A stretch of 32,756 nt of DNA from Rhizobiaceae bacterium (GCA_016793565.1 JAEUMA010000569.1:1-32756), one strand, 5' to 3'; counted from the stretch's first letter, positions 11,603-29,949 are shown. Numbers and translations are program-made. Notes: generated by a model from the sequence alone, not told the origin.

Positions 11603-12663
11603 CAATGGCCCCCGGACCGGCGCAGCCGGTAGAAGATGAAGAAGTCGCAGGCAAGCAGGAAGAAGAGCAGGATGCCCTGGAAGATGCGCGTCAGCGCCGA
11701 GGGCAGGCCAAGCGTCATCTGCACCTGTTCGCCGCCGAGGAAGAGCAGCGACATCAGCAGTCCGCCGAGCACGATGCCGAAGGCGTTCAGCCGGCCGATG
11801 AAGGCCACGATGATGGCCGCGAAGCCGTAGCCGGGCGAGATCTGCGGCGAGAGCTGGCCGAGGGGGCCGGCAGCCTCGGCCACTCCGGCAAAACCGGCCG
11901 CCGCACCGCCGGCAAGCAGGCCGATCCAGATCGCGGACGATTCGCGAAATCCGGCGTAGCGGGCGGCGAGCGGTGCGGCGCCCGAGACCGACATCTTGTA
12001 GCCGAGGAAGGAGCGGTCGGTGAACAGCCACATGGCGACCACCGCGATGACCGTGGCGACGATCGAGGTGTTGAGCCGGTAGGCGGGATCGAAATAGGAG
12101 AACATCGCGGCGGGAGGCAGCAGCGCTGTCTGCGGATAGTTGAAGCCGGCCGGATCGCGCCACGGACCGTGCACGAGCCACGAGAGCAACAGCGTCGCCA
12201 CATAGGTCAGCATCAGCGTGACCAGCACCTCGTTGGTGTTCATGCGCGCGCGCAGGAAAGCCGGAACCGCCGCCCAGGCCATTCCGGCGACGATGCCGGC
12301 CAGGATCATCAGCGGCAGGAGCAACGCGTCAGGCGCCGGCCAGTAGAGGCCGACGCCGGTCGCCGCGATCGCGCCGGCGATCAGCTGGCCTTCCGCGCCA
12401 ATGTTCCAAACGTTGCCGCGGAAACCGACGGCGAGCCCGCAGCCGATCAGGATCAGCGGCGAGGCCTTGAGCAGCCACTCGGAAAGCCCATTGGCCGAAG
12501 ACAGCGGCTGGATGAAGAAGGCGTGCAGCGCGGCCAGCGGAGCGTAGCCGAGCGCCGCGAAGAAGGCGGAGCCCACCGCGAGCGTCAGAAGCGTGGCGAT
12601 GATCGGTGCGGCGACGCGCATCGCCGCCGAGGGCTGGGGCCGCTGCTCAATGGTGAAGTGCAC
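11602..12663 (-). CDS. ABC transporter permease, BMP/nucleoside family, first permease
   Basis: 353-aa multi-TM protein. GTG start at 12663 has an AAGGGGAG SD and overlaps the ATPase 3' end by 17 nt. The NIGAEGQ motif is shared with 29946..31007. Confidence 0.85.
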   Translation of the reverse strand: MHFTIEQRPQPSAAMRVAAPIIATLLTLAVGSAFFAALGYAPLAALHAFFIQPLSSANGLSEWLLKASPLILIGCGLAVGFRGNVWNIGAEGQLIAGAIAATGVGLYWPAPDALLLPLMILAGIVAGMAWAAVPAFLRARMNTNEVLVTLMLTYVATLLLSWLVHGPWRDPAGFNYPQTALLPPAAMFSYFDPAYRLNTSIVATVIAVVAMWLFTDRSFLGYKMSVSGAAPLAARYAGFRESSAIWIGLLAGGAAAGFAGVAEAAGPLGQLSPQISPGYGFAAIIVAFIGRLNAFGIVLGGLLMSLLFLGGEQVQMTLGLPSALTRIFQGILLFFLLACDFFIFYRLRRSGGH

Positions 12664-14185
12664 CGGCGCTCCCCTTGTGCGTGCTGCTTTCGGTTCCCCC
12701 AGTCATCAGCAGGCCGATCTCCTCGCGATCGGTCTTCCTGCGGTCGAGCGAGGATGAAAGCCGTCCCTGGCAGATGACTAGGAGGCGGTCGCAAATCTCG
12801 AAGAGTTCGTCCAATTCCTCGGACACAACGATAATGGCGGCGCCGGCCCGGCTGAGGTCTACCAGCGTCTGCCGAAGAAAGGCGGATGCGCCGACATCGA
12901 CGCCCCAGGTCGGCTGCGAGACCAAAAGGACCTTCGGAGCCAGTTCCATCTCGCGACCGACGATGAATTTCTGCAGGTTGCCACCCGAAAGGCTCTGCGC
13001 GGCGGCGCCCGAGCCATTCGCCTTGACCTTGAATCGCGAAATGACCCTGTCGGCGAAGGCGGCCGCGCGACCCCGGTCGACCATGCCGCCCCGCACGAGC
13101 CCCGCGCGGTGCGCGGTCAGCACCGCATTGTCGCGCAGCGAATGGCCGGGCACGGCCCCGCGGCCCAGGCGCTCCTCCGGGACGAAAGCAAGGCCTCGGC
13201 GGCGGCGCTCGCCGGCGTCGAGGCGGCCTACAGGCTGGCCCTCGAGCCGAATCGCCTCGGCGTGGCGGTGGCGCAGTTCGCCCGAAAGATGGGCGATCAG
13301 CTCGGCCTGCCCGTTGCCGGAAACGCCGGCGATGCCGACGATCTCACCTCCGTGGACGGAGAGCGAGACGTCGCGCAAGGCAGTGCCGAAGGCGTGCGGC
13401 GGGTCCGCGGACAGGTTTTTCACTTCCAGAATCGGGGCGGGGGAGGGGCGGGCTGGCTCGATATGCATTTCCGGCAGGTTCGCGCCGACCATCATCCGCG
13501 CGAGTTCCAGCGAGGTGGTTTTGCGGGGTTCGGCGGTGCCGGTAACACGGCCGCCGCGCAGCACCGTGGCGCTGTCGCAAAGCGCCTGAACCTCGTCCAA
13601 CTTGTGGCTGATGTAGACGATCGAGCAGCCTTCCGCGGAAAGCTGGCGCAGCGTCTCGAACAGCTTTTCCACCGCCTGCGGCGTCAGAACCGAGGTCGGC
13701 TCGTCGAGGATCAGCAGTTTCGGCCGCTGCAACAGGCAGCGCACGATCTCGACGCGCTGGCGCTCGCCGACCGACAGATCGTGGACGATGCGGCGCGGGT
13801 CGACCGGCATTCCGTAGCGCTCGGAAAGTTCCACCACCTGGCGGGAAAGCGCGTCGAGGTCGAACGGCATACGCGCCGAGAGCGCGATGTTCTCGACCAC
13901 GGAGACGGATTCGAACAGGGCGAAATGCTGGTAGACCATCTCGATGCCCAGCGCGCGCGAGGTCGCCGGATCGTGCCGCTCGATGCGATTGCCGTCGCAG
14001 ACGATTTCGCCGGAATCGGCCTGCACCGCGCCGTAGATGATCTTCATCAGCGTCGACTTGCCGGCGCCGTTCTCACCCAGCACGGCGTGGATTTCGCCGG
14101 GCGCGATCGCCATCGAGATGTCGTCATTGGCGACGACGCCAGGATAGCGCTTCGAGATATTGCGCAGTTCGAGGCGGGGGGTCAT
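12647..14185 (-). CDS. ABC transporter ATP-binding protein with duplicated ATPase domains
   Basis: 512 aa. Walker A GENGAGKST, a second degenerate P-loop GVSGNGQ, LSGGNLQK, and two Walker B-like segments. Confidence 0.9.
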   Translation of the reverse strand: MTPRLELRNISKRYPGVVANDDISMAIAPGEIHAVLGENGAGKSTLMKIIYGAVQADSGEIVCDGNRIERHDPATSRALGIEMVYQHFALFESVSVVENIALSARMPFDLDALSRQVVELSERYGMPVDPRRIVHDLSVGERQRVEIVRCLLQRPKLLILDEPTSVLTPQAVEKLFETLRQLSAEGCSIVYISHKLDEVQALCDSATVLRGGRVTGTAEPRKTTSLELARMMVGANLPEMHIEPARPSPAPILEVKNLSADPPHAFGTALRDVSLSVHGGEIVGIAGVSGNGQAELIAHLSGELRHRHAEAIRLEGQPVGRLDAGERRRRGLAFVPEERLGRGAVPGHSLRDNAVLTAHRAGLVRGGMVDRGRAAAFADRVISRFKVKANGSGAAAQSLSGGNLQKFIVGREMELAPKVLLVSQPTWGVDVGASAFLRQTLVDLSRAGAAIIVVSEELDELFEICDRLLVICQGRLSSSLDRRKTDREEIGLLMTGGTESSTHKGSAGALHH

Positions 14186-14303: not shown

Positions 14304-15398
14304 CTAGGCCAGCTTGCCGATCATGCCGGCCACGAACCAGTTCATGCCGCGGATATCCGGATCGGCCAGAACCGATCCGGCCGCCACCTTGACGTTGCCG
14401 TCCTGGTCCTTCAGTTCGCCGGCATAGGGATGGACCTTGCCACTGCCGATATCGGTCTCGAGCTGCTTGAGCTTGGCCACAACGTCAGCCGGGATCTGCT
14501 CGTTGTAGGGCGCCATCTTGACGATGCCGGCTGCCAGCCCGTCCCAGCGAACCTCCGGTTTCCAGGTACCGGCGGCCACCGCCTTAGCCGGCTCGACATA
14601 GTCGCGCGACCAGTCCAGCGTGAAGGCGGTGAGCTGCTTGCCGGAGCCGAAAGCCGCCATGTCGCTGGCGTAGCCGATCGACCACGCGCCGCCTTCGCCG
14701 GCGGTCTGCACGCCGGTCGCCGTGTCGGTCATGGAGCAGATGACGTCGCAGCCCTGCGACAGCAGCGTGTTGGCCGCCTCCTTCTCCTTGCCGGGATCGA
14801 ACCAGGAATTGAGGAACACGACGTTGCAAGTGGTGTCCGGCCGGACGCTCTGGGCGCCGAGCAGAAGCGCGTTGGCAGGGCCGACGATGTCGGGAATCGG
14901 GAAGCCACCGATGAAGCCGATCTTGCCGGACTTGGTCATGTGCCCTGCCGCGGCGCCAGCCACGAAGGTTCCTTCGTAGTACTTCGCCTCGAAGGTGCCG
15001 AGATTGGCCAGGTGGACGATGCCCGAACAGTGTTCGAAGGCGATGTCGGGAAAGCGCGGCGCGACCTTCTGCATTGGCGTTCCGTGCGAGAAGCTGGTAC
15101 CGAAGATCAGCTTGTTGCCGCTGCTGGCGAGCTGCGTGAAGACCCGCTCGGCATCCTGCGGCATGAAAATGTTGTCGATGATGGTCATCTCGACCTTGTC
15201 ACCGAACGCATCCTTGATCGCCTGCGCGCCAAGGCTGTGCTGCTTGGTCCAGCCGATGTCGGCGACGGGCGAGACATATACGACGCCCACCTTCAGCACC
15301 TCCTGCGCATGCGCCAGGCCTGCAAAGCCGCCGGTGGCGGCAGCGGCGCCAAGCGCGCCGGAGTATTTCAGGAAATCGCGTCTGGTCGTGTCGGTCAT
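14304..15398 (-). CDS. BMP-family ABC transporter substrate-binding protein with twin-arginine signal
   Basis: MTDTTRRDFLKYSGALGAAAATGGFAGLAHA is a Tat-type signal. The rest resembles the BMP/PnrA fold family: GFIGGFPIPDIVG, FLNSWFDPGKEKEAA. Confidence 0.85.
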   Translation of the reverse strand: MTDTTRRDFLKYSGALGAAAATGGFAGLAHAQEVLKVGVVYVSPVADIGWTKQHSLGAQAIKDAFGDKVEMTIIDNIFMPQDAERVFTQLASSGNKLIFGTSFSHGTPMQKVAPRFPDIAFEHCSGIVHLANLGTFEAKYYEGTFVAGAAAGHMTKSGKIGFIGGFPIPDIVGPANALLLGAQSVRPDTTCNVVFLNSWFDPGKEKEAANTLLSQGCDVICSMTDTATGVQTAGEGGAWSIGYASDMAAFGSGKQLTAFTLDWSRDYVEPAKAVAAGTWKPEVRWDGLAAGIVKMAPYNEQIPADVVAKLKQLETDIGSGKVHPYAGELKDQDGNVKVAAGSVLADPDIRGMNWFVAGMIGKLA

Positions 15399-15410: not shown

Positions 15411-16229
15411 CTAATGGTTGCCTTGGATTTCAGGCCCGTTCGCAAGCGCGGGCTCTTTTCTCTGTTTGTGGTCGTGGCGATGCGGCGCCGCGGTACTGCC
15501 ACGCGGCTGAGCCGTGGAATTCGTGGCGCCGTCCCGGGCGTCGGCAGGCGGCTCGGCGAGATAGGGCGCCAGCGCCTCGCGCGGCGTCATCTCCGGAAAC
15601 ACCTGCCGGTCCATGATGTAGCCTCGGACGACGGCGCGGTGATGCGTGTCGATCAGTTCCAGCGCCTTCTTGAGCCGGCCTTTCTCCAGCAGGTCGATCA
15701 GGCGTGCGTGGTCGTCCAAAAGGTTGCAGTAGTCAAAGTCGGCTGTGATCAGGGAGCGCAACAACGTCGTGCGCCGCGTTAGCTGCGCGTGAATCTCCTG
15801 CATCACCTTGTTGCGGGAGAGCCGCACGAAGACCGTATGAAACTCCTGCCCCAGGACATCGGCCAGTGCGTCGTTGTCCGCGGCTACCGCCTGGCGCTGG
15901 CGCTCCACATGCTGGCGCAGTTCCGCCCAGCCCGCAGGCCCGAGCCTGTCGGAGAGCTGCGCGGCCACGCCCTGTTCCACCAACGTCAGGGCGTCGTAGA
16001 TCTCGATCGCCTCCTGCATCCCCGGCCTGGCGACGAAGGCGCCGCGGTTGCGCTCGATCTGCGCCAGCCCATGGTCGGCCAGGCGAATGAGCGCCTGGCG
16101 GATGACGATGCGGCTGACGCCGAAAATCTCAGAAAGCTCGCGTTCGCCCAGCTTGCAGCCAGGCACCAGTCGATGATCGATGATGGCGCGCGTCAGCACG
16201 TCTGCGATCGCCTGGGAACGGTTGCTCAT
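15411..16229 (-). CDS. GntR-family (FadR/FCD-type) transcriptional regulator
   Basis: wHTH GERELSEIFGVSRIVIRQALIRLADHGLAQIERNRGAFV. I prefer the ATG at 16229 (MSNRSQAIADVL...) with GGAAGA upstream. The track start at 16328 has no SD. The stop lies 12 nt before the BMP binding-protein start. Confidence 0.8.
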   Translation of the reverse strand: MSNRSQAIADVLTRAIIDHRLVPGCKLGERELSEIFGVSRIVIRQALIRLADHGLAQIERNRGAFVARPGMQEAIEIYDALTLVEQGVAAQLSDRLGPAGWAELRQHVERQRQAVAADNDALADVLGQEFHTVFVRLSRNKVMQEIHAQLTRRTTLLRSLITADFDYCNLLDDHARLIDLLEKGRLKKALELIDTHHRAVVRGYIMDRQVFPEMTPREALAPYLAEPPADARDGATNSTAQPRGSTAAPHRHDHKQRKEPALANGPEIQGNH

Positions 16230-16391
16230 CGGTGCGGCGTCTTCCACCCGGACTGGCTTGATTTTATTCGGATTGCCCATGTTCAGGGCATCGTTGAACG
16301 TCGACATATCCCAGATTGCGACTTGCATATATCGGAATGCAACGTGCCAGTTCTGTCAATCAGGAAATAGAGTTTGTCCGGCAGAAAATCG

Positions 16392-16474: not shown

Positions 16475-17332
16475 ATGGCAGCGCCTTGCAGCGACCGCAT
16501 TCTCCTCGACGACTGGCATATCGTCGCCGATCGCGCCGTGCTGACCGAGGGCCGGCCCTTCGCATCGCGGCTGCTCGGCGTCGACCTCGAAGTGACAAGG
16601 CACGGCGACGACGCCGACGTTGTCTGCATTACGGGCGGGGCGCCGGTGCGAAGCCAGCAGCTCTACGGCTATATCTGGGCCTGCCTCGGCACGCCGGCGC
16701 GCGACATCGTACACCTGCCGGAAGCCTTCGAGGACGACCGCCACACGGTCACCGGCGGTTCGATCGCCGTAAAAGTGTCAGGCCTGCGCGCGGTCGAGAA
16801 CTTTCTCGACATGGGCCATTTCCCGTTCGTGCACACCGGCTGGCTGGGTGACGAGCCGCACACCGAGGTGCAGCCCTACAATGTCGAGATCACCGAGGCC
16901 GACGAGATTCTCGCCACCGACTGCAAGTTCTTCCAGCCGGTCGCTTCGCCGACGGCCAAGGGCGGGATGATGGTCGACTATATCTACAAGGTGATCCGGC
17001 CCTATACGGTGGCGCTCTACAAGAGCAATCCGCTGCAGCCCGGAAGGCTCGATTCCATAACGCTGTTCGTGCAGCCGGTGGACGAGGAGAACTGCATCGC
17101 CCATCCCTTCCTCTGCTACATCAAGGAAGGCATCGATGAGCCGACGATCCGCTGGTTCATGCAACTGATCTTCGCGCAGGACAAGCCGATCCTGGAGAAC
17201 CAGGTGCCCAAGCGCCTGCCGCTGGATCCTCGCGCGGAAACGCCGATCCGCGCCGACGCTGTCTCCGTCACCTACCGTCGCTGGCTGCGCGAGCGTGCCG
17301 TCACCTACGGCGCCATCCCCGCCGCCGCCTAA
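16475..17332 (+). CDS. Rieske-oxygenase-family catalytic (non-heme iron) subunit lacking Rieske cluster ligands, copy 1 (NdmC-like architecture)
   Basis: ATG with an AGGGA SD. Iron motif ENFLDMGHFPFVH (16796-16834) and the QDKPILENQ block are present. The N-terminal 72 aa have no CxH/CxxH pair. Confidence 0.8.
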   Translation: MAAPCSDRILLDDWHIVADRAVLTEGRPFASRLLGVDLEVTRHGDDADVVCITGGAPVRSQQLYGYIWACLGTPARDIVHLPEAFEDDRHTVTGGSIAVKVSGLRAVENFLDMGHFPFVHTGWLGDEPHTEVQPYNVEITEADEILATDCKFFQPVASPTAKGGMMVDYIYKVIRPYTVALYKSNPLQPGRLDSITLFVQPVDEENCIAHPFLCYIKEGIDEPTIRWFMQLIFAQDKPILENQVPKRLPLDPRAETPIRADAVSVTYRRWLRERAVTYGAIPAAA

Positions 17333-17371
17333 ATTGAGCAAAAAATCCTTCCAGCGAAGGAGGAGACAGCC

Positions 17372-18271
17372 ATGACCAAATGCACCGACCGCGTGGTCCT
17401 CGATCTCTGGCATCCGTTGCAGGCTATCGCCGAGATGCCGGCCGGCCGTGTGCATGAGACGGTGCTGCTGGAGGAGCGCCTCGGCTTTGCGCGGGATGAG
17501 GCGGGCAATGCCGCCGTCTGGCGCGCGCGGCCGGATTTGCGCGCCGACGATGCGGTCGACATCGCGGCGGTGAACGACCGGCTGCCGGCCAAGGTCGCAT
17601 ACGGCTATGTCTGGTCCTCGCTCGGCAATCCGCCCGCCGATATCTTCCCGATCCCGGAATTCGCCGAGCCCGACCGGCGCCGGCTGAACGCCGCCACGAT
17701 GGGCGTCAACGTCTCGGCGCCGCGTGCCATCGAGAATTTTCTGGATATGGGCCACTTCCCCTATGTCCACACCGACATCCTCGGCGCCGAGCCGCACACG
17801 GAGGTGAAGGAATACGACGTCGAGGTTTCCGCCGACCGCGACGAGATTCTCGCAACGCGCTGCCGCTTCTTCCAGCCGATGGCCTCGACGGTTTCGACGG
17901 GCGGCGCCGACGTCGAATATGTCTACCGCGTGCCGCACCCGTTCTGCTCGGTGCTCTACAAGTCTAGCCCGGCCGACGAGAAGCGCATGGACGTGATCGC
18001 CATCTTCATCCAGCCCGTCGACCAGGAGCATATCCGCGCCCACATGATGCTGTGCGTTCTGGACTTCGACAACGAGGACAAGATCATAAAGCGCTTTCAG
18101 CAGACGATCTTCGGCCAGGACAAGCCAATCCTGGAAAACCAGTTCCCGAAGCGTCTGCCTCTCGATCCGCGTGCCGAGACGCCGATCCGTGCAGACAAAT
18201 CGGCGATCGCCTACCGCCGCTGGCTGAGCCAGAAGGGGTTGACCTACGGCGTCATCCCGGCCGCCGCCTGA
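17372..18271 (+). CDS. Rieske-oxygenase-family catalytic subunit lacking Rieske cluster ligands, copy 2 (tandem paralog)
   Basis: Strong GAAGGAGGAG SD. Iron motif ENFLDMGHFPYVH (17732-17770). Shares the identical block PKRLPLDPRAETPIRAD and the C-terminus YG(A/V)IPAAA with copy 1. Only one Cys (C4) occurs in the N-terminal 85 aa. Confidence 0.8.
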   Translation: MTKCTDRVVLDLWHPLQAIAEMPAGRVHETVLLEERLGFARDEAGNAAVWRARPDLRADDAVDIAAVNDRLPAKVAYGYVWSSLGNPPADIFPIPEFAEPDRRRLNAATMGVNVSAPRAIENFLDMGHFPYVHTDILGAEPHTEVKEYDVEVSADRDEILATRCRFFQPMASTVSTGGADVEYVYRVPHPFCSVLYKSSPADEKRMDVIAIFIQPVDQEHIRAHMMLCVLDFDNEDKIIKRFQQTIFGQDKPILENQFPKRLPLDPRAETPIRADKSAIAYRRWLSQKGLTYGVIPAAA

Positions 18272-18276
18272 TTTTT

Positions 18277-18379
18277 CTAAAGCGTGTTGCGTGAAAAAGG
18301 ATTCACGCAACACGCTTTAGGTATTTGATTTTGCGCATGTCTTTGTCCCGAAACCGGTTCCCACTTTCGGGAGACATGC
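18277..18379. repeat. Double-palindrome intergenic element (RIME-like); the first hairpin resembles a terminator
   Basis: Hairpin 1 has perfect 19-bp arms (18277-18295 and 18302-18320) and a 6-nt loop, followed by GTATTTGATTTTG. Hairpin 2 has a 7-bp stem (18335-18341 with 18373-18379) plus an 8-bp stem (18346-18353 with 18365-18372), with a 4-nt bulge and an 11-nt loop. It ends 3 nt before the AGGAG SD of the next gene. Confidence 0.6.
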
Positions 18380-18393
18380 TTTAGGAGACGACG

Positions 18394-20160
18394 ATGCCTG
18401 AACCCGACCGGAGCCGGTGGCACCCGATCGCCGCCTCGCACGATTTGCCTTTTCGCCACGTCTATCATGCGCAGCTTCTCGGCCGCGAGTTCGCGGTCTG
18501 GCGGGCCGACGATGGCTACGTCAATGTATGGGAGAACCGCTGCCTGCACCGCGGCGTCCGGCTTTCCATCGGCATGAACGACGGGCGCGAGCTGAAATGC
18601 CAGTATCACGGCTGGCGCTACGCCAACCGCACCGCCGGCTGCACTTACATCCCTGCCCATCCGGCCGACGCGCCGGCGCGCACCATCACCAACCGCACCT
18701 TTCCGGCGGTCGAGCGCTACGGCCTGGTCTGGTCGGCCGAAGAGCCGGTCGGCGAGGTGCCGGCGCTGGCGGGCGTCACCGAGGGGCGCCAGCTCGTGCT
18801 GCGTGGCATCCCGGTCAATGCGGCGGCCGAGGACGTGGCGGAGAGGCTGAGATCCTACCGCTTCCAGCCGAACGGCGCACTCGACGGCAAGGACGCAGAA
18901 GTGGCGCTGGAGGCGGCGTCGGATACGTCCGTGGCGCTGCGCTCCCGCGAGGCCGGCGCCGACACGCTGGCGGTCTTCTTCGTGCAGCCGGTTGATGCCG
19001 GCCGCTCGGTGATTCGAGGCGTGCTGGATGACGATGCCGAAGGTCCGCAGCGTATCGCGGTGATGAGGCACCACAACCGGCTGCTGTCCAAGCTACGCGA
19101 CGAGGCGGAGCGCGAGGCTGCTGGAAAGCCTGCGCCAGCGTCCATCGAGCCGGTCTATGAGCGCGTGTCGGCCGAACTGGCGGAGATGCCGGAGGTTACC
19201 CCGCATGGCCGCAAGGCGGCGCTGCGCGTCGAGGTGGCAAGAAAGTTCGCGGCCGCCGACGGCATCGCCGGATTCGAACTGAGGCCGATCAAGGGCCTGC
19301 TGCCGACCTTCCAGCCCGGCGCGCATATCGACGTCCATATGCCCAATGGCGAGATCCGCCAGTATTCCATCACAAATGGGCCGGGCGAGAGCGCCAGCTA
19401 TGTCATCGGCGTCAAGCTGGAGCCGGACTCCAAGGGCGGCTCGAAATGCATGCACGAGACCGTCCGCGAGGGCGACGTGCTGGCGATCTCGGAGCCACGC
19501 AACAATTTTCCGCTGCGTCGCGACGCGCTGAAGACACTGTTCATCGCCGGCGGCATCGGCATCACGCCGCTGCTTGCCATGGCGCAGGCGCTGCAGAACC
19601 AGCGGCTTGCCTTCGAACTGCACTATTTCGCGCAGAACGAGAGCCAGATGGCATTTCGCGACCGCCTGGCCGCGCTCGGTTCGTCACTCCGGCCGCATCT
19701 CGGCCTCGATCCGGCAGCCACCGGCGCCGAGTTGCGCCGACTGCTCCACGGCTACGAGGCAGGCCGGCAGGTCTATCTTTGCGGACCGGGGCCGATGCTG
19801 GAGGCAGCGCGATCGATCGCTGCGGAACTCGGCTGGCCGGATTCTTCCGTGCACTTCGAGTATTTCAAGAACACCAACACGATCGACGACAGCTCGAGCT
19901 TCGAGGTAGCGCTGGCGCGTTCGGTCATGACGCTACAGGTGCCGGCCGGCCGCACTATCCTGGAGGTCATCCGCGAGAACGGCATCGAGATGCCGTCTTC
20001 GTGCGAGCAGGGCGCCTGCGGCACCTGCCTCTGCACCGTCATCGAGGGCGAGCCGGACCATCAGGACGTCTATCTCAACGACGCCGAGCGGCGCGCGGGG
20101 ACAAAGATCCTCACCTGCGTGTCGCGCTCCAAGTCGCCGCGCCTGGTGCTGGATCTGTGA
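18394..20160 (+). CDS. Fusion protein: N-terminal Rieske [2Fe-2S] domain, degenerate oxygenase-core remnant, and PDR/VanB-type reductase (FMN, NAD, plant-type [2Fe-2S]); NdmD-like architecture
   Basis: CLHRG-x14-CQYHGW at 18541-18609 (CxH-x16-CxxH spacing). RQYS, GGIGITPLLAM and YLCGPGPM motifs. CEQGACGTCLC...C at 20002-20118. AGGAG SD 6 nt upstream of the start. Confidence 0.85.
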   Translation: MPEPDRSRWHPIAASHDLPFRHVYHAQLLGREFAVWRADDGYVNVWENRCLHRGVRLSIGMNDGRELKCQYHGWRYANRTAGCTYIPAHPADAPARTITNRTFPAVERYGLVWSAEEPVGEVPALAGVTEGRQLVLRGIPVNAAAEDVAERLRSYRFQPNGALDGKDAEVALEAASDTSVALRSREAGADTLAVFFVQPVDAGRSVIRGVLDDDAEGPQRIAVMRHHNRLLSKLRDEAEREAAGKPAPASIEPVYERVSAELAEMPEVTPHGRKAALRVEVARKFAAADGIAGFELRPIKGLLPTFQPGAHIDVHMPNGEIRQYSITNGPGESASYVIGVKLEPDSKGGSKCMHETVREGDVLAISEPRNNFPLRRDALKTLFIAGGIGITPLLAMAQALQNQRLAFELHYFAQNESQMAFRDRLAALGSSLRPHLGLDPAATGAELRRLLHGYEAGRQVYLCGPGPMLEAARSIAAELGWPDSSVHFEYFKNTNTIDDSSSFEVALARSVMTLQVPAGRTILEVIRENGIEMPSSCEQGACGTCLCTVIEGEPDHQDVYLNDAERRAGTKILTCVSRSKSPRLVLDL

Positions 20161-20167
20161 GGGCTGC

Positions 20168-20815
20168 ATGATCACGCTCTACGACTACGAACTCTCCGGC
20201 AATTGCTATAAGCTGCGTCTGTTGATGAGCATGCTGGGCGTCAAGTACAAGGCGGTGCCGGTCGACTTCTATCCCGGCCGCGAGCACAAGTCGGAGTGGT
20301 TCCTGGCGATCAACCCGCTCGGCCAGCTGCCCGTCATCGAGGATGACGGCCTGATACTGCGCGACGCGCAGGCGATCCTCGTCTATCTGGCGGCCAGATA
20401 TGATCCGTCGAAAAAATGGTATCCCGTCGACGACCCGAAAATGCTGGGCGAGATCGGGCAGTGGCTGGCCTTCGCAGACGGTATCACCAGCACCTCCTCC
20501 GCCGCCCGCCTGCATGACGGCCTGTTCTATGATTTCGATGTCGACGCCGCGCGTGCAGGCGCGCACCGGCTCTTCCGCATCCTTGACGAACACCTTTGGT
20601 TCGGCGAGCAGGAAGGTCGCGAATGGATATGCTCCGCGCCGCACCCAACGGTCGCCGACATAGCCTGCTTCCCCTACATCATGCTATCGGAAGAAGGGGG
20701 TATCCCGAGACAGGACTATTCTGCCATCCGCCGCTGGTGCGACCGCGTCAAGCGCATCGATGGCTTCGTGGTAATGTCCGGCGTCTTCCCCGCGAGCCCC
20801 GCAAGGGCCGCCTGA
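20168..20815 (+). CDS. Glutathione S-transferase family protein (possible NdmE-like structural subunit)
   Basis: 215 aa. N-terminal thioredoxin-like GST fold (LSGNCYKLRLLMSMLGVKY, INPLGQLPVIEDDGLILRDAQAILVYLA). Starts 7 nt after the reductase stop. Confidence 0.85.
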   Translation: MITLYDYELSGNCYKLRLLMSMLGVKYKAVPVDFYPGREHKSEWFLAINPLGQLPVIEDDGLILRDAQAILVYLAARYDPSKKWYPVDDPKMLGEIGQWLAFADGITSTSSAARLHDGLFYDFDVDAARAGAHRLFRILDEHLWFGEQEGREWICSAPHPTVADIACFPYIMLSEEGGIPRQDYSAIRRWCDRVKRIDGFVVMSGVFPASPARAA

Positions 20816-22077: not shown

Positions 22078-22650
22078 ATGGCCAACGTCTCGATCCACCC
22101 CGCCGTCGACGGCGGGGTGAAGAAGGGCAGCGCAAGCTTCGCCGGCGGCACGCTGGTTTGCCTTTGCGCCAGCAAACCGGTGAAGGTCAAGGTCAAGGGC
22201 AACGTCGCCCACGACCATGCCTGCGGCTGCACCAAATGCTGGAAGCCGGAGGGGGCGATCTTCTCCGTGGTAGCGGTGGCGGCGACCGGCGATGTGACGG
22301 TGACCGAGAACGGCGACAAGCTGAAAGTGGTCGATCCGAGCGCTCTGATCCAGCGTTACGCCTGCACCGGCTGCGGCGTGCACATGCACGGGCCGGTCGA
22401 GCGCGACCATGCCTTCAAGGGCTTGACCTTCGTGCATCCGGAACGTTTCCAGGAATCCGGCTGGGCCGAGCCCGGCTTCGCGGCTTTCGTCTCCTCGGTG
22501 ATCGAGTCCGGCGTCGACCCGAGCCGCATGGACGGCATCCGTGCACGGCTGAAGGAACTGGGGCTGGAGCCTTATGACTGCCTCAACCCGCCGTTGATGG
22601 ATTATCTGGCGACCTTCGCGGCCAAAAAGTCCGGCGCGCTCAAGGCCTGA
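22078..22650 (+). CDS. gfa: S-(hydroxymethyl)glutathione synthase (glutathione-dependent formaldehyde-activating enzyme)
   Basis: 190 aa with an AAGGGAGGAA SD. Matches Paracoccus Gfa as remembered: [56 protein letters not shown]. Confidence 0.9.
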
Positions 22651-23527
22651 CCGTCGCCTTGTCGGGCGCTCCGTCCGACGCCGTCATTCCGTAGGCGGTG
22701 TCGGCGGCGCCTTCTGCAACGTCGCTCGGCACGCGATAACCCTTGTTGGCGCGCACCTCGCGTGGCGACATGCCGAACTGCTGCGCAATCTGCCGCGAGA
22801 AGTGGAACGGGTTCTTGTAGCCGCACTGATAGGCGATCTCGGAAAGCGTCAGGCCGGTCTGGAGAAGCAGCGTATGCCCGCGTGCGGCGCGGCGCTGCCA
22901 GAGGTAGCGCACCGGGGTGATGCCCAGATGCCGCCGGAAAGCCGAGACGAGATGCTGCGGCGTCACCCCGACAAGCCCGGCCAGCCGCTCGACTGTGATC
23001 TCCTTGTCGAAATTCTCCTCGATGTATAGGCGTGCGCGCAGCACCGAGCGCGGAATGAGCTTCTCCTGTTCGGAGAGCTGGGCGTCGTGGAAATAGGCGA
23101 GAAAGATCGACTGGCCGAGCGCGTTGCGCAGCGCATTGAGGTTGGAAGACGAGCCCGAGCCGAGTTCGACGCCCAGCCTCTGCAACGTCTCCACGCGGGC
23201 GGAAAGTGGCACCTGCGCCGGCAGCTCGGCGAGGCGAACGTTCGAACTCGTCACCGATGTTTCGTTCGAGGCTCCACCTTCGCACCAGCTCGCCCAGGTG
23301 CGCCTACCCTCAACGTAGTCGATCAGAAGATTTCGTTCGTTGCGGAAAAAGCCGCAGCTGCGACGCTCGATGATGGTTTCCACCCCGTCGCAGACGACGC
23401 GCGCGCGGCCTTCGTGGATGATCAGCAGCGTCAGGTAGCTGTTCTGCAGGGGGCCGTAGCGCCCACCATTGGGATAGATCGCCTCCCCGAAGGCGAAACC
23501 GCGCGCGGGGTCAAGCAGTGTGTGCAT
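22640..23527 (-). CDS. AraC-family transcriptional regulator
   Basis: C-terminal double HTH ([33 protein letters not shown]..., [32 protein letters not shown]) with an N-terminal cupin-like sensor region. Divergent from the Rieske gene at 23714. Confidence 0.9.
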
Positions 23528-23713
23528 CGCACAATCCGACGCCTGATCGGCGCCGCCCCTTGGAAAGGCCTCAGCCTAGCGCCATGCGATCTTAATTCAA
23601 GATATGCATTGAACCGATTGAGGCATTCCGTCGCCCGCCTGGTTGGACCACATTTCGCAGCGGGCCGGCATCACGCCGTCTAAGCCAGCATCGACCTCGT
23701 CGGGAGCCAGCGC

Positions 23714-24769
23714 GTGTTTTTGCCAACCGATCATTCCAAGGTCCGCACCGAACTGCCGCGCGGCTGCACCTTCGATGAACGGGACTGGCATATCCTGGCA
23801 GGCTTCTGGCATCCCGTCGCCTTCGCGCATGACATCGCCGACAGCCCGGTGAGGGCGCGTCTGCTGGACGTCGACCTGGTCATCTACCGCACGGCGCAAG
23901 GGATCACGGTTGCCCGTGACCTCTGCCCGCATCGCGGAACCCGCATCAGCGCCGGCTGGATAAAGGACGACAGCCTCGTCTGTCCCATGCACGGGCTGGA
24001 ATTCGGGCATGGCGGTACCTGCACAAAGATCCCGTCCGTTGCCAACTCACAAGGCCGCATACCGCCCAAGCTCCGGCTGCAGACCTGTCTGTCGCAACTG
24101 CGCTACGGAATCGTTTGGGCTTGCCTCAAGCCGGAGCCGATCTGGCAGCTTCCGGAGTGGGAGGGCATCGGCAACCCGGATCTGCGCAATGTCTACGTGC
24201 CGAACGGCACCTGGTATGCCTCGGCCAGCCGTCATGTCGAGAACTTCAACGACGTGGCGCACTTCCCCTTCGTGCACACGAAGAGCTTCGGCGGCAGCCC
24301 AGCGGAGCCCATACCGCCCTACGACGTCGAGCACACCGATTTCGGCCTTCGCTTCGCCTTCCCCTACCACGAGGGCTTCAACCGGTTCCCCGACGGCGTG
24401 CCGGGCACGGAGCGCGATGTCGTCTACACCTACGAACTGACCTTTCCGTTCTCGACGATCATCAAGATCGCTCCGGTGGGCTCCGACTACGTCAACTATT
24501 TCGCGGACACGGTGTGCCCCGTCTCGGCGCGAGAGACGCGCATCTTCCAGGTGATGACCGACACCACCGGCGATCCGGATGACGAGCACTGGATCAAGGA
24601 TGCCCTCCTCATCAACGACGAGGACAAGCCGATGGTGGAGGAGCAGCGGCCGGAGGAACTGCCGCTCGACCTGACCGAAGAAATCCATATCCCGTCCGAT
24701 CGGATGTCGCTCGAATATCGCCGCGCTCTTGCGAAGAAATTCGGCCTCGGCGCTCCAATTTCAAGCTAG
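23714..24769 (+). CDS. Rieske non-heme iron oxygenase alpha subunit with intact Rieske domain (VanA/NdmA-class monooxygenase/demethylase type)
   Basis: GTG start with a GGGAG SD 7 nt upstream. Rieske motif CPHRG-x14-CPMHG (23924-23992). Iron motif ENFNDVAHFPFVH. NDEDKPMVEEQ block. Confidence 0.85.
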   Translation: MFLPTDHSKVRTELPRGCTFDERDWHILAGFWHPVAFAHDIADSPVRARLLDVDLVIYRTAQGITVARDLCPHRGTRISAGWIKDDSLVCPMHGLEFGHGGTCTKIPSVANSQGRIPPKLRLQTCLSQLRYGIVWACLKPEPIWQLPEWEGIGNPDLRNVYVPNGTWYASASRHVENFNDVAHFPFVHTKSFGGSPAEPIPPYDVEHTDFGLRFAFPYHEGFNRFPDGVPGTERDVVYTYELTFPFSTIIKIAPVGSDYVNYFADTVCPVSARETRIFQVMTDTTGDPDDEHWIKDALLINDEDKPMVEEQRPEELPLDLTEEIHIPSDRMSLEYRRALAKKFGLGAPISS

Positions 24770-24790
24770 CCGCAACTGGGGATATTTGAG

Positions 24791-26059
24791 ATGTCGCTGA
24801 TGCCGACCGGTCTGAACCAGATGGCACCCGCGCCCGGTGCGCCGGCCGGCGCATTTTGGGGCACGCCATTCCATTCCGCTACCGCAGCGCACAACAAAAC
24901 GACCTGGTGGTACGCCTGGGACAAATACGTCATTCCCGACGCCTACACGGACATGCCCTCCGAGTTGCGCGCCATCCGCGGCGCCGCGGCGCTCATCGAC
25001 ATGTCTCCGTTGCCGAAGATGGAAATCGCCGGACCGGAGGCGCACCGCCTCGTCAACCGTCTGATGACCCGTGACCTGTCGGCCATCGCGGTCGGGCAGG
25101 CGATGTATGCGCCTTGGTGCAACGAGCACGGCCTGCTGATCGGCGACGGCTTGGTTTTCCGCAGCGAGGAGCAGCGCTTCATCATTTCAGGCGAGGCCAG
25201 CCATGCGTGGTTCGCGGCCAATGCCACCGGGCTCGACGTCCAAGTCCGCGACGTGTCGGACGAGTTCGGCGTGCTTTCGCTGCAAGGGCCACGCGCCTTC
25301 GACGTGCTGGCGGCGGCCACCGGGCGCGACTGGTCGGCGCTGAAGTTCTCGGCCATGGCCAGGGCGCGGATCGCCGATGTGGATCTGTTCGTTGCGCGGC
25401 AGGGGTTCACCGGCGAACGCGGCTTCGAACTATGGGTGCCGCGCGACGGCGGTGCGGCGGTGTGGAACGTGGTCTACGAGGCCGGCGAGAAGTTCGGCAT
25501 CAGGCCGGCAGGCGAGTATGCAGTGGACGTCGCGCGCGTCGAGGCCGGGTTAATCCTGGTCTCCGCCGACTATACCGGCGCCGGTCCCGATCAGCGTTGC
25601 GCCCACGTCCAGGTCGCTGCCGACCTGACTGTCACCCCCTATCAGGCAGGGCTGGGCAAATTCGTCGATCTCGGCCGCGATTTCGTCGGCCGCGACGCTC
25701 TGGCACGCGAGCAGGGCGGCCCGCAAAACGGCCGCCGCCTGGTCGGGCTGCGCTACGACGCCGCCGAGATCCTTCGGCTAGCCGCCGCCAACAGCGCGCT
25801 GGGTACGGCACTATCGCGCGTCTACTGGGGTTCCATGACGGCATGGAAGGACGGGGCTGTCGTCGGCCGGGCGTCCAGCCTGTGCTTCAGCCCGACGCTG
25901 CGCCGCGCCATCAGTTTCGGGTTCCTGCCGGGCGATCTGGCTGAGCCGGGCGCATCGGTCGACGTGGAGATGAAGGACGATAGCGGGACTGGCATCGGTC
26001 TGGTGTGCGCGGAGGTGACGCGTCTGCCCTTCGTGGAGCTCAAGCGATCGAGCGGATGA
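24791..26059 (+). CDS. GcvT-family aminomethyltransferase-like, folate-binding protein
   Basis: 422 aa. Family blocks ELRAIRGAAALIDMS, FGVLSLQGPRA, ARQGFTGERGFELW, VDVARVEAGL. Confidence 0.8.
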   Translation: MSLMPTGLNQMAPAPGAPAGAFWGTPFHSATAAHNKTTWWYAWDKYVIPDAYTDMPSELRAIRGAAALIDMSPLPKMEIAGPEAHRLVNRLMTRDLSAIAVGQAMYAPWCNEHGLLIGDGLVFRSEEQRFIISGEASHAWFAANATGLDVQVRDVSDEFGVLSLQGPRAFDVLAAATGRDWSALKFSAMARARIADVDLFVARQGFTGERGFELWVPRDGGAAVWNVVYEAGEKFGIRPAGEYAVDVARVEAGLILVSADYTGAGPDQRCAHVQVAADLTVTPYQAGLGKFVDLGRDFVGRDALAREQGGPQNGRRLVGLRYDAAEILRLAAANSALGTALSRVYWGSMTAWKDGAVVGRASSLCFSPTLRRAISFGFLPGDLAEPGASVDVEMKDDSGTGIGLVCAEVTRLPFVELKRSSG

Positions 26060-27060: not shown

Positions 27061-27320
27061 TAGGATGGCGCTCGTGAGCATCGGAGCACGATGTTGGATA
27101 TGAGGCGCCTTCGAAGCCATGCAATGCAACCTGGCTCTCCCGTCGCTCCAGGCCGTGGGCTGGACGACACGGTCAAGCGCGCCCCGCGGGAGGCTCGGCG
27201 CGCCGATATGGATCGTCTCATCGCGGCAGGGGAGGCGGCTGGCTGAAAGGCGGCGGGAATAGCAGGCAAAACGACACAAGACGGGAAAACCCGATTGGAA
27301 CCAGAGGGAAAGGCACTTCA

Positions 27321-28358: not shown

Positions 28359-28372
28359 CCGCGCGCGGGTCA

Positions 28373-28401
28373 GCGGTCGCGGCGAGGACGTCCGCGACCG
28401 C
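28373..28401 (+). other. Perfect 10-bp-stem hairpin between the binding-protein gene and the ATPase gene
   Basis: 28373-28382 (GCGGTCGCGG) is the exact reverse complement of 28392-28401 (CCGCGACCGC). No U tract follows. Confidence 0.55.
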
Positions 28402-28437
28402 GAGGCCTTAACCAGCACGATCTGCGAGAGCATTGCG

Positions 28438-29945
<1,508 letters not shown>

Positions 29946-29949
<4 letters not shown>

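What the first reader, a model, noticed from the sequence alone, without database searches (positions are those of the whole stretch)
16475..20815. Split Rieske oxygenase: Rieske-less catalytic subunits, a reductase carrying the Rieske cluster, and a GST-fold partner (NdmCDE-like)
Seen in sequence: (1) ORFs 16475-17332 and 17372-18271 keep the mononuclear-iron motif of Rieske oxygenase alpha subunits (ENFLDMGHFP(F/Y)VH) and the C-terminal QDKPILENQ block. (2) In both, the stretch between the N-terminal D(D/L)WH and the YGY(I/V)W motif is only about 55-70 aa, against about 110 aa in the intact neighbour at 23714. It contains no CxH or CxxH pair, so it cannot ligate a Rieske [2Fe-2S] cluster. 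(3) The next gene (18394-20160) opens with a complete Rieske motif (CLHRG-x14-CQYHGW, 18541-18609). It ends with a full phthalate-dioxygenase-reductase module (FMN RQYS, NAD GGIGITPLLAM, plant-type cluster CEQGACGTC...C). (4) A GST-fold gene follows after 7 nt. Established knowledge: the only characterised enzyme I know with this cofactor distribution is NdmCDE, the 7-methylxanthine N-demethylase of Pseudomonas putida CBB5. There NdmC lacks the Rieske domain, the NdmD reductase has an extra N-terminal Rieske cluster, and NdmE is a non-catalytic GST-like subunit. Inference: this is an NdmCDE-type multi-subunit demethylase in a rhizobial-type genome. It has a duplicated catalytic subunit, a different gene neighbourhood and an unknown substrate, and it may be an uncharacterised family member.
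Basis: partly seen in the sequence, partly recalled or inferred. Interest (0 to 1): 0.85.

Follow-up and report, generated by a model that had tools for sequence, protein, structure and literature searches.

The report
NdmCDE-type split Rieske demethylase cluster
This is a real member of the rare "split" Rieske oxygenase family first seen in caffeine-eating Pseudomonas (NdmCDE); here it is wired to a purine-base importer and formaldehyde disposal genes, so it probably strips methyl groups from methylated purines, though rhizobial homologues were already noted in 2013.

Summary
A1 (16475-17332) and A2 (17372-18271) have only the VanA_C catalytic domain. Their iron ligands are invariant and they have no Rieske ligands. 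D (18394-20160) carries Rieske, FMN/NAD and plant-type ferredoxin modules. E (20168-20815) is a GST. I recovered an authentic ndm cluster from a P. putida plasmid for direct comparison: A1 and A2 are 45% identical to NdmC and share its deletion, D is 37% identical to NdmD (both 588 aa), and E is 66% identical to NdmE. The NdmCDE interpretation is therefore supported. Novelty is limited, because a 2015 review reports that Summers 2013 already found ndmCDE-like clusters of unknown function mainly in Sinorhizobium and Mesorhizobium. New here: the family occurs in at least 593 species genomes and appears to have a single origin, with NdmC as a minor branch. The conserved divergent transporter is closest to the guanine-binding AtzT, with a distinct conserved pocket. 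Guanine deaminase and formaldehyde-detoxification genes recur nearby. D's "linker" folds like a vestigial, iron-less catalytic domain, which suggests reciprocal cofactor loss between two former alpha subunits. The likely substrates are N-methylpurine bases such as 7-methylxanthine or 7-methylguanine. This is untested.

The parts
16475..17332 (+). A1: Rieske-less non-haem-iron catalytic subunit (285 aa), a deep paralogue of A2 and NdmC
   Evidence: VanA_C only. 45% identical to the NdmC orthologue and 48% to A2. Iron ligands invariant in 34 A1-type homologues. Found only together with A2, in 36 of 85 sources. The helix before the Asp ligand reads FMQLIFAQD, unlike NdmC and A2.
17372..18271 (+). 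A2: Rieske-less catalytic subunit (299 aa), a member of the most widespread branch of the family
   Evidence: VanA_C only. 45% identical to the NdmC orthologue. Same deletion as NdmC. The helix before the Asp ligand, FQQTIFGQD, is identical to NdmC's. AF2 model: N-terminal residues 1-100 at pLDDT 91-95 form a small beta-domain. The whole protein matches RO alpha subunits at TM about 0.74.
18209..18392 (-). Inserted palindromic element or sRNA-family sequence in the A2-D spacer (side observation)
   Evidence: Rfam RF02600 BASRCI27, 69.7 bits against a gathering score of 59.8, full model. Perfect 19-nt inverted repeat at 18277-18295 / 18302-18320. RNA fold -55.1 kcal/mol, z -7.2. Absent from S. 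meliloti and L085, where the gap is 24 and 18 nt.
18394..20160 (+). D: NdmD-type reductase (588 aa) with four parts: Rieske domain (res 9-125, nt 18418-18768), vestigial iron-less alpha-subunit catalytic-type domain (res about 126-270, nt 18769-19203), PDR-type FMN/NAD module, and plant-type [2Fe-2S] ferredoxin (res 503-588, nt 19900-20157)
   Evidence: Pfam. 37% identical and co-linear with the NdmD orthologue. The C-terminal 314 residues match phthalate dioxygenase reductase 2pia at E 4e-64, and the N-terminus matches oxygenase-type Rieske domains of SxtT and NdmA. Rieske ligands invariant in 74 homologues. Middle domain: hhalign, AF2 pLDDT 89-96, and Foldseek matches to whole alpha subunits over 266-313 columns.
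20168..20815 (+). E: NdmE-type GST-fold subunit (215 aa)
   Evidence: GST_N and GST_C. 66% identical to the NdmE orthologue. S10, C13, R17 and D66 are invariant in 77 homologues. Gst9, 67% identical to NdmE, substitutes for it functionally (PMC13237722).
20874..22007 (+). S-(hydroxymethyl)glutathione dehydrogenase (class III ADH): disposal of formaldehyde
   Evidence: TIGR02818 at 598 bits against a cut-off of 544. A homologue lies downstream of E in 22 loci.
22078..22650 (+). Gfa, glutathione-dependent formaldehyde-activating enzyme
   Evidence: TIGR02820 at 315 bits against a cut-off of 235.
15411..16328 (-). Divergent GntR/FCD-family regulator (the true start is probably later; relatives are 257-277 aa)
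   Evidence: Pfam GntR and FCD. Conserved in this divergent position in 36 loci. The ndm cluster also has a GntR regulator, 38% identical.
14304..15398 (-). Periplasmic BMP/PnrA-family binding protein with a TAT signal, in the purine-base-binding clade
   Evidence: Pfam Bmp and TAT_signal. Closest PDB chains are AtzT (E 1e-93; guanine K_D 110 nM, PMC6834077) and the adenine-bound 3s99. Pocket: W50, S102, F103 and W199 are kept; AtzT E165 to D, N169 to P, N218 to M and N220 to D, conserved in 37-38 of 38 orthologues.
10682..14185 (-). ABC transporter: two BPD_transp_2 permeases (about 10682-11605 and 11602-12663) and a double ATPase (12647-14185)
   Evidence: Pfam. Conserved alongside the binding protein in S. 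meliloti, Mesorhizobium and about 38 loci.
22640..31936 (.). Adjacent, probably linked System II: AraC regulator (22640-23527, minus strand), intact Rieske VanA-type oxygenase RO2 (23714-24769), GcvT-like protein (24791-26059), ordinary PDR reductase (26005-27060; true start probably later), second BMP binding protein (27321-28358), ABC ATPase (28438-29949), and permeases (29946-31007 and about 31007-31936)
   Evidence: Pfam. RO2 is 31% identical to NdmA and 26% to NdmB. RO2, PDR2 and BMP2 lie next to A2-D-E again in Rhodobacterales loci L081-L084. In L085 the set is followed by an adenosine/adenine-deaminase-family gene.

Best explanation
This is a three-component, NdmCDE-type split Rieske monooxygenase that oxidatively N-demethylates an imported methylated purine base.

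Shown: the four proteins are homologues of NdmC (twice), NdmD and NdmE, with the same cofactor distribution and gene order.

Inferred mechanism: NADH reduces FMN in D. Electrons then pass through D's C-terminal plant-type [2Fe-2S] cluster to D's N-terminal Rieske cluster. That Rieske domain sits in a pseudo-alpha-subunit, meaning a Rieske domain plus an iron-less vestigial catalytic domain. This pseudo-subunit docks against A1 or A2 the way neighbouring protomers do in ordinary alpha3 Rieske oxygenases. It delivers electrons across the interface to the 2-His-1-Asp iron of the Rieske-less catalytic subunit, through the conserved bridging Asp (D125 in A2). The N-methyl group is hydroxylated and leaves as formaldehyde. 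Formaldehyde is handled by the adjacent Gfa and GSH-dependent formaldehyde dehydrogenase. E, the GST-fold protein, holds the complex together, as proposed for NdmE.

Inferred substrate: free N-methylpurine bases brought in by the AtzT-like ABC transporter under GntR control. A2 most likely works like NdmC, on an N7-methyl group as in 7-methylxanthine, possibly made from 7-methylguanine by guanine deaminase. A1 probably has a different positional or substrate specificity.

My confidence by layer: NdmCDE-type homology and electron path about 0.9; methylated purine base as substrate class about 0.55; specifically 7-methylxanthine or 7-methylguanine about 0.35.
For: Homology to an authentic ndm cluster, with the shared deletion. 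Invariant iron ligands in A1 and A2 and invariant Rieske ligands in D across 117 and 74 homologues. The A2-D-E triad is conserved in essentially all 85 sources examined, and the family occurs in at least 593 species genomes. Adjacent formaldehyde genes are found here and in 22 loci, as in the ndm clusters. The binding protein is closest to the guanine-binding AtzT and the adenine-bound 3s99, with a distinct, conserved pocket. guaD is adjacent in L002, L022, L032, L033, L060 and L078, and a nucleobase permease plus a guaD-like gene are adjacent in Nocardioides L041. A2's FQQTIFGQD helix is identical to NdmC's. D's middle domain: hhalign Prob 81% on its own and 99.4% for the co-linear match of D 3-264 to alpha 26-337; AF2 pLDDT 89-96; Foldseek matches to whole alpha subunits over 266-313 columns at TM about 0.6. 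Literature description of NdmCDE (PMC4408171; PMC13237722).
Against: No biochemical or genetic data exist for any homologue outside the caffeine degraders. The substrate is inferred from context only. guaD adjacency occurs in a minority of loci, about 7 of 85 and not all phylogenetically independent. Devosia loci carry A2-D-E with no purine-related neighbours. The binding-protein pocket differs from AtzT at three H-bonding residues, so its ligand is not plain guanine and need not be a purine; AtzT itself also binds s-triazines. The AF2 models rest on shallow MSAs of 24-30 sequences at 66-96% identity. The Rieske loops of D were modelled poorly (pLDDT below 50 for residues 51-99), and no multimer model was possible. 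The role of residues 282 and 286 in NdmA specificity is recalled from Kim et al. 2019, not read here. The NJ tree has no bootstrap support.
Confidence: 0.6

Rival explanations
1. It is a plant-methylxanthine (caffeine, theobromine) degradation pathway like that of Pseudomonas putida CBB5, acquired by a plant-associated bacterium.
For: All three NdmCDE components are homologous, and A2 shares NdmC's FQQTIFGQD helix. A GntR regulator and GSH-dependent formaldehyde genes accompany both clusters.
Against: There are no NdmA or NdmB orthologues: the only intact neighbour, RO2, is 31% and 26% identical to them. An ABC purine-base transporter replaces the NCS2 permease of the ndm clusters. The family is widespread in Devosia, marine Rhodobacterales and MAGs from habitats without caffeine. 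NdmC is a small side branch of the tree.
Confidence: 0.1
2. The substrate is not a purine but another N- or O-methylated (or N-alkylated) small heterocycle that resembles a purine base, such as an s-triazine, a pterin, a pyrimidine derivative or an alkaloid. The NdmC-like chemistry is kept but the metabolite class is different.
For: The closest solved binding protein, AtzT, also binds 2-hydroxyatrazine (2.2 uM) and ammeline (0.36 uM). The window's binding protein has three altered pocket residues, including Asn to Met. Catalytic-subunit identity to NdmC is only 45%. Many loci lack any purine gene nearby.
Against: Purine enzymes recur nearby: guaD in at least 6 loci, an XDH-like molybdoenzyme in L001 and L002, and an adenosine-deaminase-family gene in L085. 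Nocardioides pairs the triad with a nucleobase:cation symporter. The aromatic sandwich and Ser-Phe of the purine pocket are conserved 38 of 38.
Confidence: 0.2
3. A1 and A2 are not two independent enzymes but obligate partners in one hetero-oligomeric catalytic core, for example A1, A2 and D's pseudo-subunit in an alpha3-like ring.
For: A1 never occurs without A2 in 36 sources, always lies immediately upstream of it, and the two are only 48% identical. D's N-terminal half has a whole-alpha-subunit fold, so mixed rings are geometrically conceivable.
Against: A2-D-E alone is the commonest arrangement, as is C-D-E in Pseudomonas, so A2 does not need A1. Both A1 and A2 keep a complete iron site. 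Their substrate-helix motifs differ, which fits two specificities better.
Confidence: 0.2
4. The small ORFs are decaying, inactive remnants of Rieske oxygenase genes.
For: They lack a domain normally considered essential.
Against: They have coding GC3 of 0.84. Iron ligands are invariant in 117 homologues spanning several phyla. Identity of 60-96% is maintained across genera. The NdmC homologue is experimentally active (PMC4408171). The AF2 folds are confident and match alpha subunits.
Confidence: 0.02

Closest known systems
NdmCDE, the 7-methylxanthine N7-demethylase of Pseudomonas putida CBB5 (Summers et al. 2013; compared here through the orthologous cluster on P. putida MT178 plasmid pTmex-577K)
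   Same: Rieske-less VanA_C catalytic subunit with the identical deletion. A 588-aa reductase with N-terminal Rieske, FMN/NAD and plant-type ferredoxin. An adjacent GST-fold subunit (66% identical). Gene order C-D-E. A GntR regulator and GSH-dependent formaldehyde genes nearby. A2's FQQTIFGQD helix is identical to NdmC's.
   Different: Two catalytic paralogues instead of one. No NdmA or NdmB orthologues. An AtzT-like ABC purine-base transporter in place of an NCS2 permease. Only 45% (C) and 37% (D) identity. Substrate unknown. It belongs to a much larger, mostly alphaproteobacterial branch of the family.
ndmCDE-homologous clusters of unknown function in Sinorhizobium and Mesorhizobium (noted by Summers 2013, as cited in PMC4408171; for example S. 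meliloti pSymA, L001)
   Same: The same set of transporter, GntR, A1, A2, D and E, at 75-90% protein identity in S. meliloti pSymA. The window is a further member of this group.
   Different: The window adds FDH and Gfa and a second oxygenase/transporter system directly downstream. It also has an inserted BASRCI27-type element between A2 and D. Mesorhizobium sp. AR02 has a single catalytic subunit followed by guaD.
NdmA and NdmB (PDB 6ICK, 6ICL) and SxtT and GxtA (PDB 6WN3, 6WNC): conventional alpha3 VanA-type Rieske monooxygenases
   Same: The same catalytic fold and iron-ligand motif. These are the best structural matches for A2 (TM about 0.74) and for D's N-terminal half (TM about 0.6).
   Different: Those enzymes carry the Rieske cluster and the iron site in one polypeptide. 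Here the two cofactors are on separate polypeptides, each of which retains a vestige of the lost half.
Phthalate dioxygenase reductase (PDB 2PIA), a class IA Rieske-oxygenase reductase
   Same: D residues 275-588 align end to end with it (E 4e-64): FMN, NAD and plant-type [2Fe-2S].
   Different: D has an extra 270-residue N-terminal pseudo-alpha-subunit that carries a Rieske cluster.
AtzT (PDB 6PI5) and Brucella 3S99, purine-base-binding BMP-family proteins
   Same: E 1e-93 to the window's binding protein. TAT signal. The aromatic sandwich and Ser-Phe backbone contact are conserved.
   Different: Three H-bonding pocket residues are systematically changed (Glu to Asp, Asn to Met, Asn to Asp), which implies a different, possibly methylated, base.

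Membership tests
NdmCDE-type split Rieske oxygenase | Catalytic subunit has the non-haem-iron (VanA_C) domain with a 2-His-1-carboxylate site but no Rieske [2Fe-2S] ligands | tested here: met
   Pfam VanA_C only. D125, H128, H133 and D250 invariant, and 0 of 117 homologues have CxH plus CxxH. No upstream extension is possible.
NdmCDE-type split Rieske oxygenase | Catalytic subunit is homologous to NdmC and shares its deletion (common origin, not convergence) | tested here: met
   45% identity over the full length to the NdmC orthologue. The deletion is at the same alignment columns. Rieske-less proteins are monophyletic in an NJ tree without bootstrap.
NdmCDE-type split Rieske oxygenase | Reductase carries an extra N-terminal Rieske cluster in addition to FMN, NAD and plant-type [2Fe-2S] | tested here: met
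   Pfam Rieske, NAD_binding_1 and Fer2. 37% identical and co-linear with the 588-aa NdmD orthologue. C50, H52, C69 and H72 invariant in 74 homologues.
NdmCDE-type split Rieske oxygenase | GST-fold third subunit encoded immediately downstream and homologous to NdmE | tested here: met
   GST_N and GST_C. 66% identity to the NdmE orthologue. 7-nt gap after D. Present in 77 of 85 sources.
NdmCDE-type split Rieske oxygenase | The three proteins form a tight complex, and the GST-like subunit is required for solubility and activity | not testable with these tools
   Known for NdmCDE only from the literature. No multimer modelling or experiment was available.
NdmCDE-type split Rieske oxygenase | NADH-dependent N-demethylation with release of formaldehyde | not testable with these tools
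   Indirect support only: GSH-FDH and Gfa lie directly downstream, and FDH or fghA lies downstream in 22 or more loci.
7-methylxanthine N7-demethylase (NdmC function in the strict sense) | Substrate is 7-methylxanthine, with N7 specificity | tested here: inconclusive
   A2's helix before the Asp ligand is identical to NdmC's (FQQTIFGQD), while A1's differs. guaD and purine-base transporter context. No activity data.
Caffeine N-demethylation pathway (NdmABCDE) | Presence of NdmA (N1) and NdmB (N3) demethylase orthologues alongside NdmCDE | tested here: not met
   The only intact Rieske oxygenase in the window is 31% and 26% identical to NdmA and NdmB. No NdmA-type hits were found in the rhizobial loci.

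The most novel reading that the evidence does not exclude
The NdmCDE architecture is not a curiosity of caffeine degraders. It is the hallmark of a large, single-origin family found in at least 593 species genomes, mostly soil and marine Alphaproteobacteria. Its native job would be salvage and catabolism of ubiquitous N-methylpurine bases released from RNA and DNA turnover (such as 7-methylguanine converted to 7-methylxanthine and then xanthine), and caffeine degraders recruited one branch of it. Mechanistically, the enzyme would be a product of reciprocal degeneration. One former alpha subunit kept the iron site and lost the Rieske cluster (A/NdmC). The other kept the Rieske cluster, lost the iron site, retained a vestigial catalytic fold and fused to the reductase (D/NdmD). 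The two then rebuild a single inter-subunit Rieske-to-iron wire, with the GST-fold protein as clamp. Because its G-site-like residues are invariant, the GST-fold protein might also act as a glutathione-dependent formaldehyde trap.
Probability: 0.35. Interest if true: 0.65.

Novelty: new member of a known kind. Interest (0 to 1): 0.45.

Why it matters
NdmCDE remains, as far as the literature held here shows, the only characterised Rieske oxygenase whose Rieske cluster sits on the reductase. It is also the only one that needs a GST-fold subunit. Its complex structure is still unsolved (PMC13237722, 2026), and its homologues have had "unknown function" since 2013. This window and its relatives supply concrete, testable leads:

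- A candidate substrate class, methylated purine bases, with a dedicated binding protein whose pocket differs from guanine binders in a conserved way.
- Natural two- and three-paralogue versions that could reveal how positional specificity is set.
- A structural hypothesis for how the split enzyme assembles, with a pseudo-alpha-subunit inside the reductase.

If the methylpurine reading is right, it would define a widespread bacterial route for recycling methylated nucleobases. It would also explain where caffeine degraders obtained their N7-demethylase.

Tried and rejected
- **Finding NdmD by peptide:** searching the protein collection with the NdmD C-terminal peptide from PDB 6icm_D returned only stand-alone 84-aa ferredoxins, not NdmD. 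tblastn against plasmids then found the ndm cluster.
- **Primary paper:** the NdmCDE paper (Summers 2013) could not be read by DOI or PMC id, so its content is cited through reviews.
- **Literature searches:** searches for a 7-methylguanine or methylpurine Rieske demethylase, or for characterised rhizobial NdmC homologues, found nothing relevant. The 2025 Rieske oxygenase review does not mention NdmC or NdmE.
- **NCBIfam:** it has no model for A1 or A2.
- **Devosia neighbourhoods:** these and the unbiased neighbour-cluster census gave only lineage-specific synteny (SDR, Ldh_2, EF-P, Omp85 and others) and no substrate clue.
- **Operator search:** no inverted-repeat operator was detected in the GntR-A1 intergenic region.
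- **Window 3' end:** it holds a YciI-like gene and an ECF sigma factor, not a deaminase as in L085.
- **Pseudogene reading:** considered for the small ORFs and rejected on ligand invariance and broad conservation.
- **Plain linker reading:** considered for D residues 126-270 and rejected on the AF2 and Foldseek evidence.


Full report
**Observation.** The four ORFs are at the stated coordinates.
- A1 (16475-17332, 285 aa) and A2 (17372-18271, 299 aa) hit only VanA_C.
- D (18394-20160, 588 aa) hits Rieske (res 9-91), NAD-binding and Fer2 (res 512-578).
- E (20168-20815, 215 aa) hits GST_N and GST_C.

NCBIfam has no model for A1 or A2. All quoted motifs are present. The reading frames of A1 and A2 open only 17 and 13 codons upstream of their ATGs, so no hidden Rieske extension exists. 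The PDB alignment of A1 to SxtT matches residues 4-43 and then jumps to residue 107, skipping the cluster-binding segment. The contrast itself is real.

**Is it NdmCDE-like?** No tool gave the CBB5 sequences directly. I took the NdmD ferredoxin-domain sequence from the PDB 6icm_D alignment and ran tblastn against plasmids. This found a complete ndm cluster on P. putida MT178 plasmid pTmex-577K (L003). Its NdmA and NdmB products score 765 and 785 bits against the PDB NdmA and NdmB chains, so the cluster is authentic. Compared with it:
- A1 and A2 are each 45% identical to NdmC over the full length.
- D is 37% identical and co-linear with NdmD, both 588 aa.
- E is 66% identical to NdmE. That is the same distance as Gst9, which replaces NdmE functionally (PMC13237722).
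- A1 and A2 are 48% identical to each other.

A multiple alignment shows that A1, A2 and NdmC lack exactly the CxH...CxxH segment present in NdmA, NdmB and the window's intact oxygenase.

**Prior knowledge.** Review PMC4408171 summarises the defining features of NdmCDE. It also states that Summers et al. [quoted passage not shown] I confirmed the same gene set on S. meliloti pSymA and on a Mesorhizobium plasmid. The window is therefore a new member of a group that has been noted but not characterised. Searches found no later characterisation.

**Distribution and conservation.** They include Labrys, Aminobacter, Mesorhizobium, Sinorhizobium, many Devosia, Hoeflea, Rhodobacterales, an Arenicellales gammaproteobacterium and Nocardioides. 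In the 85 sources examined:
- A2-D-E is present wherever the contig is long enough (D in 78, E in 77).
- A1 is present in 36 and never without A2.

The iron ligands are invariant in 34 A1-type and 83 A2-type sequences, and none of the 117 has Rieske ligands. D's four Rieske ligands are invariant in 74 homologues. An NJ tree without bootstrap puts all Rieske-less subunits in one clade. A2 falls in the largest branch, NdmC in a small branch, A1 in a deep separate branch, and a further paralogue type appears in L029 and L030. This argues for a single loss of the Rieske cluster and for a family far larger than the caffeine pathway.

**Context and likely substrate.** Divergent from A1 are a GntR regulator and an ABC transporter, conserved in about 38 loci across three orders.
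- The binding protein is closest (E 1e-93) to AtzT and Brucella 3s99. AtzT binds guanine at 110 nM and adenine at 2.5 uM but not GTP. 3s99 was deposited with adenine (PMC6834077). This is therefore a free-purine-base clade.
- Mapping AtzT's contact residues shows the aromatic sandwich and Ser-Phe are conserved. Glu165 to Asp, Asn169 to Pro, Asn218 to Met and Asn220 to Asp are fixed in 37-38 of 38 orthologues. This is a distinct pocket, consistent with a modified purine base.
- Guanine deaminase is adjacent in L002, L022, L032, L033, L060 and L078. Nocardioides pairs the triad with a nucleobase permease and a guaD-like gene.
- Downstream lie S-(hydroxymethyl)glutathione dehydrogenase and Gfa. 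FDH or fghA follows the cluster in 22 or more loci and in the ndm clusters, which fits formaldehyde release.
- A2's helix preceding the Asp ligand (FQQTIFGQD) is identical to NdmC's. A1's differs (FMQLIFAQD), and NdmA and NdmB differ again. From my recollection of Kim et al. 2019, this is the position mutated in the NdmA "QL" specificity-switch variant listed in the PDB.

I infer N-methylpurine bases as substrates, with A2 most likely acting on an N7-methyl group. This is inference, not demonstration.

**Anatomy of D.** D's Rieske domain resembles oxygenase alpha-subunit Rieske domains (SxtT E 8e-22, NdmA), not Rieske ferredoxins. The 145 residues between it and the reductase have no Pfam hit. 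Several results show this stretch is not a plain linker:
- Profile-profile comparison aligns D 192-231 with A2 208-246 (Prob 81%, E 1.3e-5). D 3-264 aligns co-linearly with residues 26-337 of an intact alpha subunit (Prob 99.4%).
- In that alignment, the positions of the two His ligands read ERLRSYRFQP and the Asp ligand aligns to Leu234, so the iron site is gone.
- An AF2 model of D 1-280 gives pLDDT 89-96 for residues 100-250.
- Foldseek matches whole alpha subunits (GxtA, SxtT, KshA, NdmA, NdmB) over 266-313 columns with TM about 0.6.
- Conversely, A2's N-terminal 100 residues model as a confident small beta-domain (pLDDT 91-95), and A2 as a whole matches alpha subunits at TM about 0.74.

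The picture is reciprocal degeneration of two alpha-type protomers, one of them fused to the reductase. In ordinary alpha3 enzymes, electrons pass from the Rieske cluster of one protomer to the iron of its neighbour, so an A:D(N-terminal) pair would rebuild one such wire. Caveats: the MSAs are shallow, the Rieske loops are poorly modelled, and no multimer prediction was possible.

**E.** E is the most conserved component (66% to NdmE, against 45% for the catalytic subunits and 37% for D). Ser10, Cys13, Arg17 and Asp66 are invariant and Gln53 nearly so in 77 homologues. These positions correspond to GST G-site elements. This is compatible with the proposed structural role but leaves a glutathione-dependent role open.

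**Second system.** Immediately downstream are an AraC regulator, an intact Rieske VanA-type oxygenase (31% and 26% identical to NdmA and NdmB), a GcvT-like protein, an ordinary PDR reductase and a second BMP-type ABC transporter. The oxygenase, reductase and transporter lie next to A2-D-E again in Rhodobacterales (L081-L084). In the closest relative (L085, 96% A2 identity) an adenosine/adenine-deaminase-family gene follows. This suggests a multi-enzyme methylpurine island, but I did not pursue it further.

**Verdict.** Novelty: a new member of a known, uncharacterised homologue group. Interest is moderate (0.45). The architecture is rare and its structure is unsolved, and the comparative data make the native substrate and the assembly testable. 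The existence of rhizobial homologues, however, is not new.

Noticed in passing
window 18209-18392 (minus strand); hairpins at 18277-18320 and 18335-18379: The 122-nt AT-rich A2-D spacer is an inserted element that matches Rfam RF02600 (BASRCI27, a Brucella sRNA family) above its gathering score. It has a perfect 19-nt inverted repeat and a second hairpin (RNA fold -55 kcal/mol, z -7.2). On the plus strand it looks like a terminator inside the operon. Close relatives have only 18-24 nt at this position.
   Followed up: partly
window 22640-31936: A second demethylase-type system: AraC, an intact Rieske VanA-type oxygenase, a GcvT-like (folate-binding) protein, a PDR reductase and a second BMP-family ABC transporter. 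It co-localises with A2-D-E again in distant Rhodobacterales (L081-L084), which suggests a functional link.
   Followed up: partly
L085 20108-20900: In the closest relative (96% A2 identity, JGI metagenome 3300036376) an adenosine/adenine-deaminase-family gene (PF00962) directly follows the System II reductase. The window has the BMP2 binding-protein gene at that position instead.
   Followed up: no
L029, L030, L031 (upstream of A1-A2-D-E): A third Rieske-less paralogue (about 50% identical to A2) sits beside a BMP2-type ABC transporter. Some Rhizobium and Ensifer genomes therefore carry three Rieske-less catalytic subunits but apparently one D and one E.
   Followed up: no
window 18769-19203 (D residues about 126-270): The apparent linker in the reductase is a well-folded vestigial oxygenase catalytic-type domain without iron ligands. 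I found no mention of this for NdmD in the papers I could read.
   Followed up: yes
window 14304-15398 (minus strand): The binding protein has a conserved pocket signature relative to guanine-binding AtzT: Glu165 to Asp, Asn169 to Pro, Asn218 to Met and Asn220 to Asp in 37-38 of 38 orthologues. The Asn to Met change could accommodate a methyl group.
   Followed up: partly
window 20168-20815: The GST-fold subunit is the most conserved component. It keeps invariant Ser10, Cys13, Arg17 and Asp66 at G-site-like positions in 77 homologues, which is unexpected if its role is purely structural.
   Followed up: partly
L041 (Nocardioides immobilis): An actinobacterium carries A2-D-E at 67%, 60% and 58% identity to the window's proteins, next to a nucleobase:cation symporter and a guaD-like gene. 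This is probably horizontal transfer with a swapped uptake system.
   Followed up: no
window 26005-27060 versus 24791-26059: The listed GTG start of the System II reductase overlaps the GcvT-like gene by 55 nt. The L085 orthologue is 320 aa and starts after GcvT, so the true start in the window is probably later.
   Followed up: no
L004 7793-10261 (Paraburkholderia caffeinilytica plasmid p1): In this caffeine degrader the NdmC-like and NdmD-like genes are annotated shorter (227 and 464 aa) with a 390-nt gap between them. This may reflect mis-annotated starts or a disrupted Rieske region.
   Followed up: no
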